Assembly (NCBI GenBank): GCA_052168235.1
Contig: JBQLZK010000035.1
Location: forward strand, 1 to 64,000
Reading direction: 5' to 3'
Source of the DNA: Thainema sp.
GTDB lineage: Bacteria > Cyanobacteriota > Cyanobacteriia > Phormidesmidales > Phormidesmidaceae
Length of the DNA: 64,000 bases
Shown piece after piece: positions 52,065-63,234 of this stretch. Position 1 is the stretch's first letter. Every line of letters starts with the position of its first letter. A program made the position numbers and the translations under genes. A model generated the notes under the pieces. The model did not search any database and was not told the DNA's origin. It was given only the letters and a program-made list of their open reading frames with translations.

Positions 52065-52145
52065 TTTTCCGTAGATTGCATTCGCGCAGCAATGCACCAC
52101 ACTAGGAAGAGTTGCAATATCAATTAAGCTTGCGTCTACCAAGCT

Positions 52146-52234
52146 CCTAGAGAATGCGGATTTAATTAAGGTGAAATCTTTAAGGTAGGGATACGGCAAT
52201 GCCGTGTCCCTACTAATTAATCCACAATCCTAAG
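52146..52234. mobile_element. Uninterrupted REP-containing miniature element
   Basis: Imperfect inverted ends CCTAGAGAATGCGGATTTAATT and AATTAATCCACAATCCTAAG enclosing GTAGGGATACGGCAATGCCGTGTCCCTAC. Confidence 0.7.
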
Positions 52235-52236
52235 AG

Positions 52237-52278
52237 CAAAAGAAGCCGGATGGTCTCCATTCCATCCGGCTTCTTTTG
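52237..52278. terminator. Bidirectional terminator between hemB and the ParR-like gene
   Basis: CAAAAGAAGCCGGATGG/CCATCCGGCTTCTTTTG stem. Confidence 0.85.
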
Positions 52279-52287
52279 TTTAGAACC

Positions 52288-52554
52288 TTATGCACCAATC
52301 AAATCATCCAGTTCATCTAGGGCCTCACAGGTTGGAGCAGTGCTAGCACTAGTTCGCGCTGATGGCATCGGTCGAGCACCCATCGCAGGCGCACCAGCAG
52401 AAAACTGAGGAGTGCGGGCGTACAGGTAATCATCGGAGTAGCGGCGAAAGACGGCTTCCACCGCAGCGCGAGCATTTTTGAGTCCCCATTCAGCGGCGAT
52501 CTGCTCGGCTTTTTCGATTACATCTCGGCTGAGTCTTACTTTGTTGTCATGCAT
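52288..52554 (-). CDS. ParR-like small protein (predicted ribbon-helix-helix, linker, acidic C-terminal helix)
   Basis: KVRLS strand, helices RDVIEKAEQIAAEWG and NARAAVEAVFRRY, tail EALDELDDLIGA; overlaps the upstream actin-like gene by 19 nt. Confidence 0.75.
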   Translation of the reverse strand: MHDNKVRLSRDVIEKAEQIAAEWGLKNARAAVEAVFRRYSDDYLYARTPQFSAGAPAMGARPMPSARTSASTAPTCEALDELDDLIGA

Positions 52555-53588
52555 AGCTGAGTATCTTGAGAAAGTAAAAATAAACCACGAACATTAGCAA
52601 ACTGAGGATCGCCCATTACAGTAAACAGCTTGCGTCCCGCCAGTCGCTCTGTAATTAAGTGAGAGCCGCCACCTGTCACTAAGAAGCGGGTCACCCGCGC
52701 CATATAGGGCGTGTATTGGGCTTTCACAGTTTGAAAAATACCTTTGAACCACGGATCGAGATGCTCATCCAGCCAGTCTGACCAGGATAGACCCGTATCC
52801 GCATACACGTGATCAACTCGAAACCCGTCCATCACGATGCTGGGATCAGCACTGGTGCCTAGCGCCATCGTTAACCGCTTGTCAAAGCTGATCGAAGTCG
52901 CTAGCTCATAGGTGCCGCCACGATTCATCACGTTTTCATCAATCACGTCACCTTCCGCATCAATCAACCGCGTTAGCCAGGTGCCGCCGCCGATATCGAC
53001 CACAATCGTGTAGCCGCTATCGGGGATTTGGCCCTCTTTTCTGGCGTGATAGTAGGCACCCATACCTTCCCGCGCGACGGTAATGGTTTGGACATCAACC
53101 TTGAATTGAATACCATTGCGGACGAATTCGTGCTTGCCTAAAAGCTGCTCTTGAATGGCTTTGCCATGCTTCGCGGGTTCAGGCGTTGAAAGGTATAAGT
53201 CCAACGGAAATTCTGAAACAACACCATTGATTGGCTCCAAGCAGGCGTAGAGATGGAGACGGGCCAGTTCAACTTTGTTTTCAATCACCGTTTGCTGCTG
53301 ACGACGATATTTGTAGGCTTGGGCACCAAAGTGATGACGGCTACCATCGGCTAGCTCAATCAGCGGCGAAGCGTCAGAACAGCGAACGGCATCGCGACCT
53401 TTGGGCAACTGATAGCGAACCGAACGAATCGCTTTGGGATGCCCGGTGCCGTCATAAAATTTGAGGTCATAATTGCCAGCGTCTAGGGCGAGGATGCGAG
53501 TTGTTTCGGTAGAATTAGGCAAATTCTCTGAGGCAGAGGACGCACTTTTAGTTGTGGTAGTCTTTCTCTGTCGGGTTGCTGTTGTCAT
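52536..53588 (-). CDS. ParM/StbA-family actin-like ATPase
   Basis: Phosphate-1 LALDAGNYDLK, connect-1 REGMGAY, phosphate-2 VVDIGGGT, adenosine VTGGGS and connect-2 PQFANVRG. Confidence 0.92.
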   Translation of the reverse strand: MTTATRQRKTTTTKSASSASENLPNSTETTRILALDAGNYDLKFYDGTGHPKAIRSVRYQLPKGRDAVRCSDASPLIELADGSRHHFGAQAYKYRRQQQTVIENKVELARLHLYACLEPINGVVSEFPLDLYLSTPEPAKHGKAIQEQLLGKHEFVRNGIQFKVDVQTITVAREGMGAYYHARKEGQIPDSGYTIVVDIGGGTWLTRLIDAEGDVIDENVMNRGGTYELATSISFDKRLTMALGTSADPSIVMDGFRVDHVYADTGLSWSDWLDEHLDPWFKGIFQTVKAQYTPYMARVTRFLVTGGGSHLITERLAGRKLFTVMGDPQFANVRGLFLLSQDTQLCMTTK

Positions 53589-53812
53589 TGGTTATTCCCT
53601 GAATCCAATTGTGGAGGTTTGTCCCCAATTAGTACACTTGAACTATATCGCATCTCACGGTTAGGTCAAGCCTTAACTAAAATTTTTTCGGCTAAAGCAA
53701 TTTCCTATCCCTAGCTAGAGAGCTTGCGAGGCTAATTCCTGGTAGGCTTTCCTGAGATTCTGAAAACTGATAATTGGTTTGAAGTTTTGTTAACGAGTTG
53801 GGTGAGGATCAA

Positions 53813-54118
53813 ATGGATGCAGGCGCGATCGCAGCTATCGTTTACGGAGTATTAACCTTTGTCGGCGGCATCATTGGCTATGTCCAGGCCAAAAGTACAC
53901 CGTCGCTGATTTCAGGCGTAATCAGCGGGATTTTGCTGATTGCAGGCGGTATTTTGTCTCTCAATGGTGTTGCCTGGGCTGAAACCGCTGCACTGGTTAT
54001 TACCGTACTGTTAGTAATCGTTTTTGCTTGGCGATTGATCAAAACCAAGCGATTTTTTCCAGCAGGGTTAATGACAGCTGCGGGGATTGCGGCCATTATC
54101 GTGATGCTGGCAGGCTAG
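53813..54118 (+). CDS. TMEM14-family small membrane protein
   Basis: YGVL..GGIIGYVQAKSTPSLISG and F.PAGLM motifs. Confidence 0.9.
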   Translation: MDAGAIAAIVYGVLTFVGGIIGYVQAKSTPSLISGVISGILLIAGGILSLNGVAWAETAALVITVLLVIVFAWRLIKTKRFFPAGLMTAAGIAAIIVMLAG

Positions 54119-55196: not shown

Positions 55197-55529
55197 ATGA
55201 GAGCAAGACTTGAGAATGAGGTCATTTATCTACATCAAGACGATGTGCCTCAGTACAAGAAGAAGGGCTCAGTCGTTCGCAACACGTTTTTCTGGGCGCT
55301 ACAGTCCATTGCCGGACGCGCCAGATTCGATGAAGATTGGGAGTTTGAATCAGAAGTTTGGATTGCGCTCGGCCGCATGTTAATGCACTTCACGGAGTCA
55401 GGATATCTCGGTTATTCAGAAACCACCTTGGAATTTCCCTACGAGACAGAAATTCCCAGCGTTTTACGAGATGTTGCAACCTGGACAGCATCGGAGGATC
55501 AGCTCGAAGACGAGCTAGAAGGAACTTGA
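55197..55529 (+). CDS. Hypothetical protein
   Basis: 110-aa ORF; TTGACA at 55160 with a plausibly spaced CAGAAT -10 upstream. Confidence 0.75.
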   Translation: MRARLENEVIYLHQDDVPQYKKKGSVVRNTFFWALQSIAGRARFDEDWEFESEVWIALGRMLMHFTESGYLGYSETTLEFPYETEIPSVLRDVATWTASEDQLEDELEGT

Positions 55530-62361: not shown

Positions 62362-63234
62362 ATGAAGAGCGATCGCGCACATCTTCAGGATATTCAAGTC
62401 GAACAGTTCAAGGAAATTGCTGCCAAGCTTCGCGAAACTCGCGAAACGCAGGGGTTGTCTATTGAACAGCTATCGACAAAAACCTTGATTCAGCGCCGCT
62501 TACTCTATGCCATTGAAGCTGCTGATATTGAACAGCTACCCGAAATGGTATATGTTCGGGGATTTGTTAAACGTTACGCAGAGGCTTTGGGATTAGATGG
62601 CCAAGGAATTGTGGATGTGCTGCCAGTAGAGGGGACAAGCCACAGCATGAAGCCATCTTGGAAGGAGCTTCCAGCGGCGCAGCTCCGACCGCTGCATTTG
62701 TATCTGCTCTATATTGTGGTAATTGCGCTGGCAGTTGGTGGATTATCCCATTTCCTCCGTCAGGTTGAGTCTCCAACGGTTGCTAATAATTCCAGTAGTC
62801 CGACCACTGCTCCGGCTGAAGTCATTCCAGACCCAGCACCTCAGACCAGCGAGGTTGAAAATACAGCTACCAACAGCAACGGAGAGCAGCCAGCAGCAAC
62901 AGCAACTGACGCGGAAAATTCAGACCAGCCAAATGAGTCTACTGTATCTGGGCCAATTCGAGTGGAAGTGAAGCTGACGGCTCAATCGTGGATGCGTATT
63001 ACCGTGGATGGCACAACTGAATTTGAAGGTGTCCTGCAAGCTGGTGATGAGCGCACATGGACAGCCAAGGAAGAACTAACGCTACGGGCTGGCAATGCGG
63101 GCGGAGTGATGGTGGCGTATAACAATGGAGATGCGGAACCGCTTGGAGAACCGGGCAGCGTTGAAGAAATCACCTATCCGCAAACTCAAAGTACCGCTCG
63201 ACTCGTGGACGCTGAATCAACTCTCCCCCAGTGA
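62362..63234 (+). CDS. rodZ: RodZ-like cell shape protein (HTH, TM, DUF4115)
   Basis: YVRGFVKRYAEALGLD HTH, single TM, and SWMRITVDG..GNAGG motifs. Confidence 0.85.
   Translation: MKSDRAHLQDIQVEQFKEIAAKLRETRETQGLSIEQLSTKTLIQRRLLYAIEAADIEQLPEMVYVRGFVKRYAEALGLDGQGIVDVLPVEGTSHSMKPSWKELPAAQLRPLHLYLLYIVVIALAVGGLSHFLRQVESPTVANNSSSPTTAPAEVIPDPAPQTSEVENTATNSNGEQPAATATDAENSDQPNESTVSGPIRVEVKLTAQSWMRITVDGTTEFEGVLQAGDERTWTAKEELTLRAGNAGGVMVAYNNGDAEPLGEPGSVEEITYPQTQSTARLVDAESTLPQ

What the first reader, a model, noticed from the sequence alone, without database searches (positions are those of the whole stretch)
52288..53588. Chromosomal ParM/ParR-like pair with no plasmid context or parC: candidate repurposed cytoskeletal system
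Seen: a 350-aa protein with all five actin-fold motifs of the ParM/StbA type overlaps by 19 nt an 88-aa gene with an RHH-like N terminus, a low-complexity linker and an acidic C-terminal helix. The pair lies between hemB and a TMEM14 gene, with no rep, mob, integrase or transposase nearby. I see no iteron array in 53589-53812 or downstream. Established: ParMRC normally segregates low-copy plasmids and requires parC repeats. Inference: this is a domesticated filament system acting on something other than plasmid DNA, such as membrane-associated cell shape control. I recall a recent report of a chromosomal ParMR system ('CorMR') in multicellular cyanobacteria, but cannot verify orthology here.
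Basis: partly seen in the sequence, partly recalled or inferred. Interest (0 to 1): 0.88.

Follow-up and report, generated by a model that had tools for sequence, protein, structure and literature searches.

The report
Second chromosomal ParMR lineage, LexA-boxed
A real actin-like ParM/ParR gene pair sits on the chromosome of a thin filamentous cyanobacterium; it is not the published CorMR shape system but a separate, very conserved lineage whose promoter carries the binding site of the DNA-damage repressor LexA.

Summary
A 350-aa ParM-type actin-like ATPase (52536-53588, minus strand) overlaps an 88-aa ParR-like gene (52288-52554) by 19 nt. The pair lies between hemB and a Tmemb_14 gene in a housekeeping context, with no iteron array.

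The CorMR reading does not hold as orthology. True CorMR, confirmed against PDB 9rmi, is a different family. The window protein does not detect it, and this genome has none. Both systems occur together in 12 of 123 genomes of the order. The small protein has no N-terminal amphipathic helix, which is the feature that makes CorR a membrane anchor.

The pair belongs to a tight clade that I call 'L-type':
- It is 70-82% identical across Leptolyngbya-, Nodosilinea-, Elainella-, Stenomitos- and Oculatella-like genomes.
- It is more conserved than primase in the same genomes.
- It was never found on a plasmid (0 of 69 plasmid matches at 60% identity or more). The nearest plasmid ParM is 46% identical.

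A 14-bp palindrome fused to the -10 box is conserved in 55-69 of 77 orthologous promoters. It matches the published cyanobacterial LexA box and resembles the boxes upstream of this genome's own lexA and recA.

Best reading: an independently domesticated, LexA-controlled ParMR filament system whose adaptor probably still binds DNA. Its cellular role is untested.

The parts
52536..53588 (-). parM-like gene, 350 aa: actin-like ATPase of the ParM/StbA kind ('L-type' clade)
   Evidence: ORF. ALP_N 26.4 bits. PHROG 691 at 8e-22. Model pLDDT 88, with ParM structures as top fold matches. Orthologues are 70-82% identical.
53502..53588 (-). Codons for the N-terminal tail of ParM, about residues 1-29. 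The tail is disordered, basic and Ser/Thr-rich, with a conserved start (MTTAT, then R/K-rich).
   Evidence: pLDDT is below 50 for residues 1-27. The alignment of the N termini shows the tail in L-type rows and its absence from most 34-46% relatives. Its hydrophobic moment is 0.08-0.14, so it is not amphipathic.
52288..52554 (-). parR-like gene, 88 aa: an adaptor with a ribbon-helix-helix-like N-terminal domain, a variable linker and a C-terminal acidic helix. It overlaps parM by 19 nt.
   Evidence: ORF. Present next to parM in 97 of 98 loci. In the 45-row alignment, 30 columns are invariant and lie almost entirely in residues 1-44 and the C-terminal helix. Model.
52291..52329 (-). Codons for ParR residues 76-88, the predicted ParM-binding helix
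   Evidence: In the predicted complex the confident contacts are ParR 76-87 with ParM 281-302 and 315-322. The score is 0.61 against a best control of 0.00. A similar C-terminal motif is present in the ParR of the nearest plasmid system.
53642..53669 (-). Sigma-70-type promoter: TTGACC, 16 nt, TATAGT
   Evidence: The consensus scan gives 10 of 12 matches. The same layout is seen in orthologous loci.
53631..53644 (-). 14-bp palindrome AGTTC-N4-GTACT that overlaps the -10 hexamer: a candidate LexA box
   Evidence: GTWC-N4-GTAC occurs in 55 of 77 orthologous upstream regions, against 0.58 in shuffles. A looser form occurs in 69 of 77, against 1.8. It matches the published cyanobacterial LexA-box consensus (PMC3091678). 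Like boxes lie upstream of this genome's own lexA and recA. It occurs in 0 of 37 other cyanobacterial ParM loci.
53617..53626 (-). Second conserved element, GGGGACAAAC, just downstream of the palindrome. Its role is unknown; it could be a degenerate second box, a ParR site or a 5' UTR feature.
   Evidence: TGGGGACA is found in 36 and TGGGTACA in 23 of 78 upstream regions. In some lineages it forms a second GTAC-N4-GTTC-like palindrome. The composite of both elements occurs once in the 7.54-Mb genome.
52237..52278 (.). Perfect 17-bp inverted repeat with an 8-nt loop between the convergent hemB and parR genes: a terminator-like hairpin
   Evidence: the repeat finder I1. Metatranscriptome contigs of a roughly 93%-identical relative end at 52293-52335 (weak evidence).

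Best explanation
This is a two-gene chromosomal operon of a previously undescribed, vertically inherited ParMR lineage ('L-type'). It occurs in thin filamentous cyanobacteria and is distinct from CorMR.

Shown or well supported by computation:
- ParM has the ParM fold and intact nucleotide-binding motifs.
- ParR's C-terminal acidic helix is predicted to dock on ParM.
- The pair is single-copy, embedded among housekeeping genes, and evolves more slowly than primase.
- It is absent from the plasmid records searched.
- It coexists with true CorMR in some genomes.
- Its promoter is overlapped by a conserved palindrome that fits the cyanobacterial LexA box.

Inferred:
- LexA represses the operon. 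Loss of LexA, through DNA damage or whatever else controls LexA in these organisms, induces it.
- ParM then polymerises, and ParR dimers couple the filament to their ligand through the ribbon-helix-helix domain.
- That ligand is most likely DNA. The strand residues K5, R7 and S9 are invariant, and there is no membrane-targeting helix.
- The system would therefore move or organise chromosomal DNA rather than act as a membrane-bound shape cytoskeleton.

The cellular role is not shown.
For: Clade and conservation:
- Orthologues are 70-82% identical in 17 of 40 relatives, in 80 named loci and in 120 listed proteins.
- The clade is monophyletic at 99* (quick tree) and 100/100 (careful tree).
- DnaG of the same genomes is less conserved: 94% against 99% in the same genus, and 63-69% against 70-82% elsewhere. 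Spearman rho on bit scores is 0.69 for 15 genomes.

Chromosomal location:
- Named records include complete chromosomes of 6.3 and 7.2 Mb.
- No plasmid match reaches 60% identity (0 of 69). The best is 46%, on a 38-kb plasmid.
- The profile finds one ParM-family gene in this genome.

Distinct from CorMR:
- CorM was found in 31 of 31 genomes of one family with a profile, and one copy was confirmed against PDB 9rmi.
- The window ParM gives no 9rmi hit at E up to 1.
- Of 123 genomes of the order, 49 have L-type, 32 have CorM and 12 have both. In one genome both lie on the same contig.

ParM-ParR contact:
- The complex score is 0.61 against a best control of 0.00. That mark was reached by 116 of 157 solved complexes and 2 of 215 mismatched pairs.
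- The runs agree in at least 54% of their contacts, and the partner's pLDDT is at least 56.
- A like complex is solved (R1 ParM with a ParR peptide), so this pass may reflect likeness to it.

LexA box:
- Present in 55 of 77 (strict form) and 69 of 77 (loose form) upstream regions, against 0.58 and 1.8 in shuffles.
- The consensus and example boxes come from passages of PMC3091678.
- This genome's lexA has a perfect match, and its recA has the same fusion of the -10 box with the box.
- Present in 0 of 37 other ParM loci.

No amphipathic helix: the N-terminal hydrophobic moment is 0.32-0.40 with mean hydrophobicity near 0 and charge +1. For CorR the values are 0.54-0.59, 0.40-0.46 and +3.
Against: - No experiment bears on LexA binding, on induction, or on what ParR binds.
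- The ribbon-helix-helix fold is not statistically established. Foldseek gave no match at E 0.001 or better, only weak hits that are mostly ribbon-helix-helix proteins.
- The window's own box differs from the strict published consensus RGTACNNNDGTWCB at one position, whichever strand is read.
- Part of the conservation of the first half-site could come from its overlap with the -10 hexamer.
- The invariance of ParR residues 1-6 is confounded by the overlap with the parM reading frame.
- The palindrome could be ParR's own operator.
- The AU test does not reject a tree in which L-type and CorM form one clade (p-AU 0.745; the held tree is better by 13.6 log-likelihood units). A shared chromosomal origin with CorM therefore remains possible, and 'independent domestication' is not shown.
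- ParM carries an N-terminal disordered tail. The CorMR preprint reports such tails only for its chromosomal clade.
- In some cyanobacteria LexA is not an SOS regulator (passages of PMC3091678), so a LexA box does not by itself mean control by DNA damage.
Confidence: 0.55

Rival explanations
1. It is a CorMR-type cortical cytoskeleton. Filaments would be tethered to the membrane and control cell shape in a multicellular cyanobacterium. Membrane contact would have to come from something other than an N-terminal helix of the adaptor, for example the basic ParM tail or a partner protein.
For: - The pair is chromosomal, vertically inherited and found in filamentous hosts.
- ParM has an N-terminal disordered tail.
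- The AU test does not reject a joint clade with CorM.
- The adaptor has the same overall logic as CorR: an N-terminal domain, a disordered linker and a C-terminal ParM-binding helix.
Against: - There is no amphipathic N terminus. The ribbon strand starts at about residue 4.
- The only strongly amphipathic stretch of ParR is the acidic C-terminal helix (charge -5), which is predicted to bind ParM.
- The ParM tail has a hydrophobic moment of 0.08-0.14.
- The system coexists with true CorMR in 12 of 123 genomes, which argues against the same role.
- No sequence similarity to CorM is detectable by phmmer.
- LexA-box control is not seen at the CorM loci that carry a CorM-like N-terminal tail.
Confidence: 0.15
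2. It is a true chromosomal ParMRC. The conserved palindromes at the promoter would be ParR's own operator and a minimal centromere, as parC is in plasmid R1. The system would separate chromosome copies constitutively, and the likeness to a LexA box would be coincidental or secondary.
For: - The site lies where parC lies in plasmid systems: upstream of parM and overlapping the promoter.
- Two or three GTAC-type half-sites are spaced 8-10 bp apart, and the composite occurs once per genome.
- The ParR strand residues are invariant.
Against: - The palindrome fits the published LexA consensus. The same kind of box stands before lexA and recA of this genome, where ParR has no expected role.
- The strict palindrome occurs at 13 sites in the genome, about what base composition predicts (the expectation of roughly 29 is my own arithmetic).
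- There is no iteron array.
- The nearest plasmid system has a different upstream repeat and a different ParR N-terminal domain.
Confidence: 0.15
3. It is a leftover partition module of an integrated plasmid or prophage. It would be either decaying or serving an extrachromosomal element in trans.
For: - The nearest relatives outside the clade include a plasmid ParM (46% identity) and chromosomal copies in element-like contexts.
- PHROG 'partition protein' matches.
- LexA control is common in prophages (from general knowledge).
Against: - The genes are intact and strongly conserved in 49 of 123 genomes of the order, with presence that is consistent within genera.
- The flanks are housekeeping genes, both here and in relatives.
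- No other ParM-family gene occurs in this assembly.
- No copy of this clade lies on any of 72,556 plasmid records.
- One genome shows what decay looks like: a 49-residue remnant with a stop codon.
Confidence: 0.05

Closest known systems
CorMR of Anabaena sp. PCC 7120 (bioRxiv 10.1101/2025.06.27.661541; CorM filament PDB 9rmi)
   Same: - Both are chromosomal ParM/ParR-derived pairs in filamentous cyanobacteria with no iteron parC.
- In both, ParM carries an N-terminal disordered tail.
- In both, the adaptor has an N-terminal small domain, a disordered linker and a C-terminal helix that binds the ATPase. This is shown for CorR in the preprint and predicted here.
   Different: - It is a separate family. 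phmmer gives no match to 9rmi, and 9rmi ranks only 11th among fold matches at 17% identity.
- The adaptor is 88 aa, against 162-188 aa, and lacks both the N-terminal amphipathic helix and the long coiled helix.
- The ParM tail is basic and Ser/Thr-rich rather than Pro/Ala/Asn-rich.
- There is a LexA box at the promoter.
- Both systems coexist in 12 of 123 genomes.
- The preprint text does not mention Leptolyngbya-like taxa or LexA. Its supplementary tables could not be read, so I cannot tell whether members of this clade sit in one of its plasmid-rich clades.
Plasmid ParMRC (type II partition): R1, pSK41, and cyanobacterial plasmids such as pMIC7113.05 of Allocoleopsis franciscana PCC 7113
   Same: - The gene order is parM then parR, with overlapping genes.
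- ParM has the same fold; pSK41 ParM is the best PDB match.
- The ParR C-terminal motif resembles that of the PCC 7113 plasmid ParR.
- A regulatory site lies on the promoter upstream of parM.
   Different: - It is chromosomal and single-copy, with no iteron array.
- It reaches at most 46% identity to any plasmid copy.
- The extra N-terminal tail is absent from the plasmid relative.
- The ParR N-terminal domain is unrelated in sequence to that of the plasmid ParR.
- The upstream site fits a host repressor's box.
Genome-encoded ParMs of Firmicutes: Dh-cParM1 and Cb-cParM (J Biol Chem 2025, PMC12270681; passages read)
   Same: Both are chromosomal ParMR cassettes with high conservation within a lineage and an unknown role beyond plasmid partition. 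Dh-cParM1 (8x1i) is among the fold matches.
   Different: The phylum is different and there is no close sequence relationship. The Cb system has a functional parC that its ParR binds (paper's statement). That paper does not mention LexA or SOS control.
Cyanobacterial LexA regulon (Li et al. 2010, PMC3091678; box first defined by Mazon et al., as cited there)
   Same: Both show a 14-bp pseudo-palindrome of the AGTAC-N4-GTACT type in the promoter region, as before lexA and recA.
   Different: A ParM/ParR operon was not found as a reported regulon member. One full-text search for ParM, 'LexA box' and cyanobacteri* returned one unrelated paper.

Membership tests
ParM/StbA-type actin-like ATPase | Five actin-fold nucleotide-binding motifs intact | tested here: met
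   D36/G38/N39, E174, D198-T203, G306-G308 and N332/G335 are invariant or nearly invariant columns. Assigning them to the named motifs is from my knowledge of the fold.
ParM/StbA-type actin-like ATPase | Profile match to curated ParM-type families | tested here: met
   ALP_N scores 26.4 bits against a cut-off of 26.3, which is marginal. PHROG 691 partition protein matches at 8e-22. The NCBIfam ParM equivalog scores only 18.9 bits against a cut-off of 417.
ParM/StbA-type actin-like ATPase | ParM fold rather than MreB, FtsA or Hsp70 | tested here: met
   The top Foldseek matches are pSK41 ParM, Ta0583, Alp12, Clostridium ParMs and CorM. MreB entries start at rank 26.
ParM/StbA-type actin-like ATPase | ATP-dependent polymerisation | not testable with these tools
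   Needs purified protein.
ParMRC partition system (type II) | Small adaptor gene directly downstream whose C terminus binds ParM | tested here: met
   Adjacent in 97 of 98 loci. The predicted complex scores 0.61 against a best control of 0.00, with the interface at ParR 76-87. This is a prediction and may reflect likeness to the solved R1 complex.
ParMRC partition system (type II) | Adaptor N-terminal ribbon-helix-helix DNA-binding dimer | tested here: inconclusive
   The monomer model has the right order of elements at pLDDT about 85. Foldseek gave no match at E 0.001 or better; the weak hits are mostly ribbon-helix-helix proteins. The dimer and DNA binding were not tested.
ParMRC partition system (type II) | parC: an array of direct repeats near parM | tested here: not met
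   No tandem repeat and no iteron family. Only a LexA-type palindrome and one further conserved element lie at the promoter.
ParMRC partition system (type II) | Carried on a low-copy plasmid | tested here: not met
   The flanks are housekeeping genes. Orthologues lie on complete chromosomes. No plasmid match reaches 60% identity (0 of 69).
CorMR cortical cytoskeleton | Orthology of the ATPase to Anabaena CorM | tested here: not met
   No phmmer hit to 9rmi at E up to 1. True CorM orthologues exist in related genomes at 63-73% identity to a copy confirmed against 9rmi, and are not found in this genome. Free trees separate the clades, although the AU test does not reject a joint clade.
CorMR cortical cytoskeleton | N-terminal amphipathic helix on the adaptor, ahead of the ribbon-helix-helix domain | tested here: not met
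   The conserved strand starts at about residue 4. The hydrophobic moment is 0.32-0.40 with hydrophobicity near 0, against 0.54-0.59 and 0.40-0.46 in CorR. This was my own Fauchere-Pliska calculation, not Amphipaseek as used in the preprint.
CorMR cortical cytoskeleton | N-terminal disordered region on the ATPase | tested here: met
   Residues 1-27 have pLDDT below 50. The tail is conserved as a basic tail across the clade, but its composition differs from CorM's.
CorMR cortical cytoskeleton | Adaptor binds membrane and not DNA; filaments regulated by MinC | not testable with these tools
   Needs liposome, EMSA and MinC assays. MinC of this genome was not examined.
Cyanobacterial LexA regulon | 14-bp LexA box in the promoter, conserved among orthologues | tested here: met
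   The window has AGTTC-N4-GTACT at 53631-53644. The box is present in 55 of 77 (strict) and 69 of 77 (loose) orthologous upstream regions, against 0.58 and 1.8 in shuffles. It fits the consensus quoted in PMC3091678. The window's copy has one mismatch to the strict form.
Cyanobacterial LexA regulon | lexA present, with the same kind of box before lexA and recA | tested here: met
   lexA is on contig C11, 207 aa, with Ala-Gly, GDSM and a later Lys visible in the sequence. Reading these as the cleavage site and catalytic residues is from recall. Boxes lie upstream of lexA and recA.
Cyanobacterial LexA regulon | LexA binding and derepression on LexA loss | not testable with these tools
   Needs EMSA or footprinting and expression data.

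The most novel reading that the evidence does not exclude
Filamentous, polyploid cyanobacteria of the Leptolyngbya/Nodosilinea group would carry a second chromosomal actin-like machine that arose separately from CorMR. It would be switched on by loss of LexA. Through a DNA-binding ParR, it would push or gather chromosome copies during the DNA-damage response. That would make it the first LexA-controlled cytomotive filament, and the first ParMR system that acts on a chromosome.
Probability: 0.22. Interest if true: 0.85.

Novelty: new variant of a known kind. Interest (0 to 1): 0.62.

Why it matters
The CorMR preprint describes one vertically transmitted chromosomal ParMR incorporation in cyanobacteria, confined to Nostocales and Oscillatoriales and tied to a membrane-binding adaptor.

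This window points to another chromosomal ParMR family in a different set of filamentous cyanobacteria:
- It is as conserved as a core gene.
- It coexists with CorMR in some genomes.
- It lacks the membrane helix.
- It is wired to the host's LexA box.

If the wiring is real, it links an actin-like filament system to the DNA-damage or LexA regulon. It would also reopen the question, answered in the negative for Anabaena, of whether any ParMR system handles chromosomes. The question is directly testable in culturable strains that carry the pair, such as Nodosilinea nodulosa PCC 7104 and Halomicronema hongdechloris C2206 (named).

Tried and rejected
- Searching for CorM with the window protein alone failed. 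In 401 genomes of the phylum it found only weak plasmid-type matches and one unrelated chromosomal ParM-like gene (L122), which has no tail and no downstream adaptor. A profile of diverse relatives was needed.
- Family PF17989 searched over the own genome found nothing, not even the window gene. That search is insensitive for this clade.
- The listing of cluster members on ten representatives gave names for only three and did not lead to the Anabaena accession.
- I first thought L-type and CorM were mutually exclusive. The order-wide counts refuted this, with 12 genomes carrying both.
- I first read the promoter palindrome as a ParR operator or mini-parC. I now rank that below the LexA reading.
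- The quick tree placed CorM apart from L-type. The AU test showed that the free search had missed a better tree with the two together, and the careful tree moved CorM again, next to another long branch. The position of CorM cannot be settled with these data.
- No neighbour gene other than parR recurs across the 80 named loci. glgC-, chlI- and ruvC-like neighbours are lineage-specific, and a 41-locus 'family' is an antisense ORF inside parM (the three gene names are my reading of the N-terminal sequences).
- Rfam found nothing in 52100-53900 at E up to 1.
- The search of earlier findings returned nothing.
- RNA evidence is weak. Three metatranscriptome runs from one study hold contigs of a roughly 93%-identical relative. 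These contigs cover parR and parM and end near the parR stop. Contigs cannot show strand, level or a single transcript, and DNA carry-over is possible.
Full report
**What is there**

The window is the first 64 kb of a 75.7-kb contig (C35) of a 7.54-Mb, 205-contig cyanobacterial assembly. On the minus strand, a 350-aa ORF (52536-53588) overlaps an 88-aa ORF (52288-52554) by 19 nt.

The large protein scores just over the Pfam ALP_N cut-off (26.4 against 26.3 bits) and matches PHROG 691 'partition protein' at E 8e-22. Its best PDB sequence match is the pSK41 ParM (3js6, E 3e-4). Its AlphaFold model (pLDDT 88; residues 1-27 and 344-350 disordered) matches ParM-family structures first, with MreB lower. 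The nucleotide-binding motifs are invariant columns in alignments of relatives.

The small protein has no family hit. Its model has an extended stretch at residues 4-9, helices at 10-23 and 28-46, a disordered linker, and a helix at 77-87. Foldseek finds nothing significant. The weak matches are mostly ribbon-helix-helix proteins: CopG, VapB, NikR, Arc and omega.

The flanks are dnaG, hemB, a Tmemb_14 gene and phzF. Further out lie transketolase-like, EamA, a two-component pair, a pseudouridine synthase and a RodZ-like gene, with no mobile-element family. There are no tandem repeats or iterons. A near-consensus promoter (TTGACC, 16 nt, TATAGT) lies 53 nt upstream of parM. A perfect 17-bp hairpin follows parR.

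**Relatives**

The ParM has orthologues at 70-82% identity, and 99% in the same genus:
- They occur in 17 of 40 relatives searched and in 80 named loci.
- The named loci come from Leptolyngbyaceae, Nodosilinea, Elainellaceae, Oculatellaceae, Stenomitos, Myxacorys, Tildeniella and similar records.
- They include two complete chromosomes of 6.3 and 7.2 Mb. The 120 best database proteins are also of this kind.

The small gene follows directly in 97 of 98 loci (some genomes occur twice). An alignment of 45 ParR sequences shows 30 invariant columns. Almost all lie in residues 1-44 and in the C-terminal helix, and the linker between them is free to vary. Apart from parR, no neighbour is shared across lineages. 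The flanks elsewhere are also housekeeping genes.

In the order that holds the window's genome (123 genomes, one family), the gene is present in 49 genomes. Presence is consistent within genera, for example 34 of 40, 0 of 38, 0 of 15 and 0 of 10. ParM is more conserved than primase in the same genome pairs, and the two sets of scores correlate (Spearman 0.69 for 15 genomes). These genomes are related, so the p-value overstates the support.

No copy of this clade lies in 72,556 plasmid records. The best plasmid match is 46% identical, on a 38-kb plasmid of Allocoleopsis franciscana PCC 7113. That copy lacks the N-terminal tail. Its ParR has an unrelated N-terminal domain but a similar C-terminal motif. 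The profile finds only one ParM-family gene in this genome.

**Is it CorMR?**

The recalled report exists (bioRxiv 10.1101/2025.06.27.661541). I read its main text, two results sections, the discussion and the sequence-analysis methods. It describes:
- CorM with a 40-aa disordered N terminus.
- CorR of 162 aa with an amphipathic helix in its first 10 residues that binds membrane, no DNA binding, and a C-terminal peptide that binds CorM.
- A chromosomal clade restricted to Nostocales and Oscillatoriales.

The window protein alone did not find CorM. A profile of 61 diverse relatives found a chromosomal gene of about 385 aa in 31 of 31 genomes of one family. That gene has a roughly 40-aa tail and is followed by a 175-188-aa protein that starts with an amphipathic basic stretch and ends in a short helix. 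One such protein matches PDB 9rmi, 'CorM', at E 1.2e-218, so these are true CorM genes.

Using that protein as the query, CorM orthologues (63-73% identity) turn up in 10 of 40 relatives, but not in the window's genome. In the order they occur in 32 of 123 genomes, and 12 of those also carry the window's type. In one genome both lie on the same contig, 2.2 Mb apart. The two are therefore different systems, not versions of one.

The window's ParR has no N-terminal extension. Its N-terminal hydrophobic moment and hydrophobicity are well below those of CorR.

Phylogeny is less clear than I first thought:
- The window clade is robustly monophyletic (99*, then 100/100). It sits among tail-less relatives of 34-46% identity.
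- CorM sits on a stem about ten times longer, and its place changes between analyses.
- The AU test does not reject a tree that unites the two clades (p-AU 0.745).

Whether the two share one chromosomal ancestor is therefore open.

**The promoter**

Aligning the upstream regions of the orthologues shows that conservation is concentrated on the promoter and the 30 nt that follow it. The core is a 14-bp palindrome of the form AGTWC-N4-GTACT, whose first half overlaps the -10 hexamer.
- GTWC-N4-GTAC is present in 55 of 77 upstream regions, against 0.58 in shuffles (maximum 2).
- A looser form is present in 69 of 77, against 1.8.

This is the cyanobacterial LexA box. Passages of Li et al. 2010 (PMC3091678) give RGTACNNNDGTWCB and AGTACWNWTGTACT as consensus forms and list boxes of both the AGTAC and AGTTC kinds.

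In this genome, lexA has a perfect match upstream, and recA has the same fusion of TATAGT with the box. The LexA protein shows an Ala-Gly pair, a GDSM motif and a later lysine. Reading these as the cleavage and catalytic residues is from recall.

The box is specific to this clade. It occurs in 0 of 37 other cyanobacterial ParM loci and 2 of 25 CorM loci within 300 nt, and it is absent from the nearest plasmid. Within 400 nt, four CorM loci of the short, tail-less kind have such boxes.

A second conserved element (GGGGACAAAC here) follows the box. In some lineages it forms a second box-like palindrome. The composite of both elements is unique in the genome. The strict palindrome alone is not enriched genome-wide: 13 sites, against about 29 expected by my own arithmetic. 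One full-text search for ParM, 'LexA box' and cyanobacteri* returned one unrelated paper. The CorMR preprint and the paper on genome-encoded ParMs do not mention LexA.

**How it most likely works**

ParM and ParR are predicted to bind through ParR residues 76-87 and ParM residues 281-302 and 315-322.
- The score is 0.61 against a best control of 0.00.
- That mark was reached by 116 of 157 solved complexes and 2 of 215 mismatches.
- The runs agree in at least 54% of contacts, and the partner's pLDDT is at least 56.
- A like complex is solved, so the pass may reflect that likeness.

The rest is inference. LexA would hold the operon off. When LexA is lost, ParM filaments form and are coupled by ParR dimers to whatever the ribbon-helix-helix domain binds. 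I favour DNA. The strand residues K5, R7 and S9 are invariant, the fold family is DNA-binding, and there is no membrane helix. The invariance of the first six residues is, however, confounded by the overlap with parM.

The basic, Ser/Thr-rich ParM tail is unexplained.

**Verdict**

The CorMR or membrane reading is not. What is new is a distinct, widespread, slowly evolving chromosomal ParMR family with a conserved LexA box.

All of this is computational. Expression evidence is limited to metatranscriptome contigs of a relative.

Noticed in passing
window 62362-63234 (+): A RodZ-like protein (HTH_25 plus RodZ_C domains), a partner of the MreB shape system, lies about 9 kb from the parMR pair. 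The linkage was not checked in relatives and is probably coincidental.
   Followed up: no
L019 (G017:C130:8836-8982): A genome that has CorMR carries only a 49-residue remnant of the window-type ParM (73% identity, with one TAG stop). This suggests recent loss of the L-type gene in that lineage.
   Followed up: no
L163-L166 and the g4 genomes: A subgroup of CorM orthologues (about 351 aa, aligning from CorM residue 43) appears to lack the N-terminal tail. Four such loci have LexA-box-like palindromes within 400 nt upstream, unlike the loci of the tailed CorM type.
   Followed up: partly
L033, about 130 nt upstream of parM: One orthologous locus has an array of short tandem repeats (units with TTGACCGT followed by an A-run) between the conserved promoter and the start codon. 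No other locus shows this.
   Followed up: no
L049-L067 and others (Nodosilinea-like loci): In this group the ParR reading frame can be extended upstream by about 20 residues that begin with a near-copy of the normal N terminus (MHDHQV... ahead of ...DNKVRLS). This may be an alternative start or a small duplication.
   Followed up: no
G000:C33:50742-51539 and G000:C15:43012-43989: The own genome has two ORFs of about 380 aa that match CorM weakly (23-25% identity, E 5e-8 and 4e-5). Similar ORFs occur in many relatives. They are probably another actin-like family and were not identified.
   Followed up: no
L039 and 10 to 11 further Nodosilinea-like loci: In this lineage, chlI-like and ruvC-like genes lie just downstream of parR. 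These gene names are my reading of the N-terminal sequences. The synteny is lineage-specific and is not seen in the window.
   Followed up: partly
window 55197-55529 (+): A 110-aa acidic ORF with no Pfam hit lies downstream of phzF. It is conserved at 87% in the same-genus relative.
   Followed up: no
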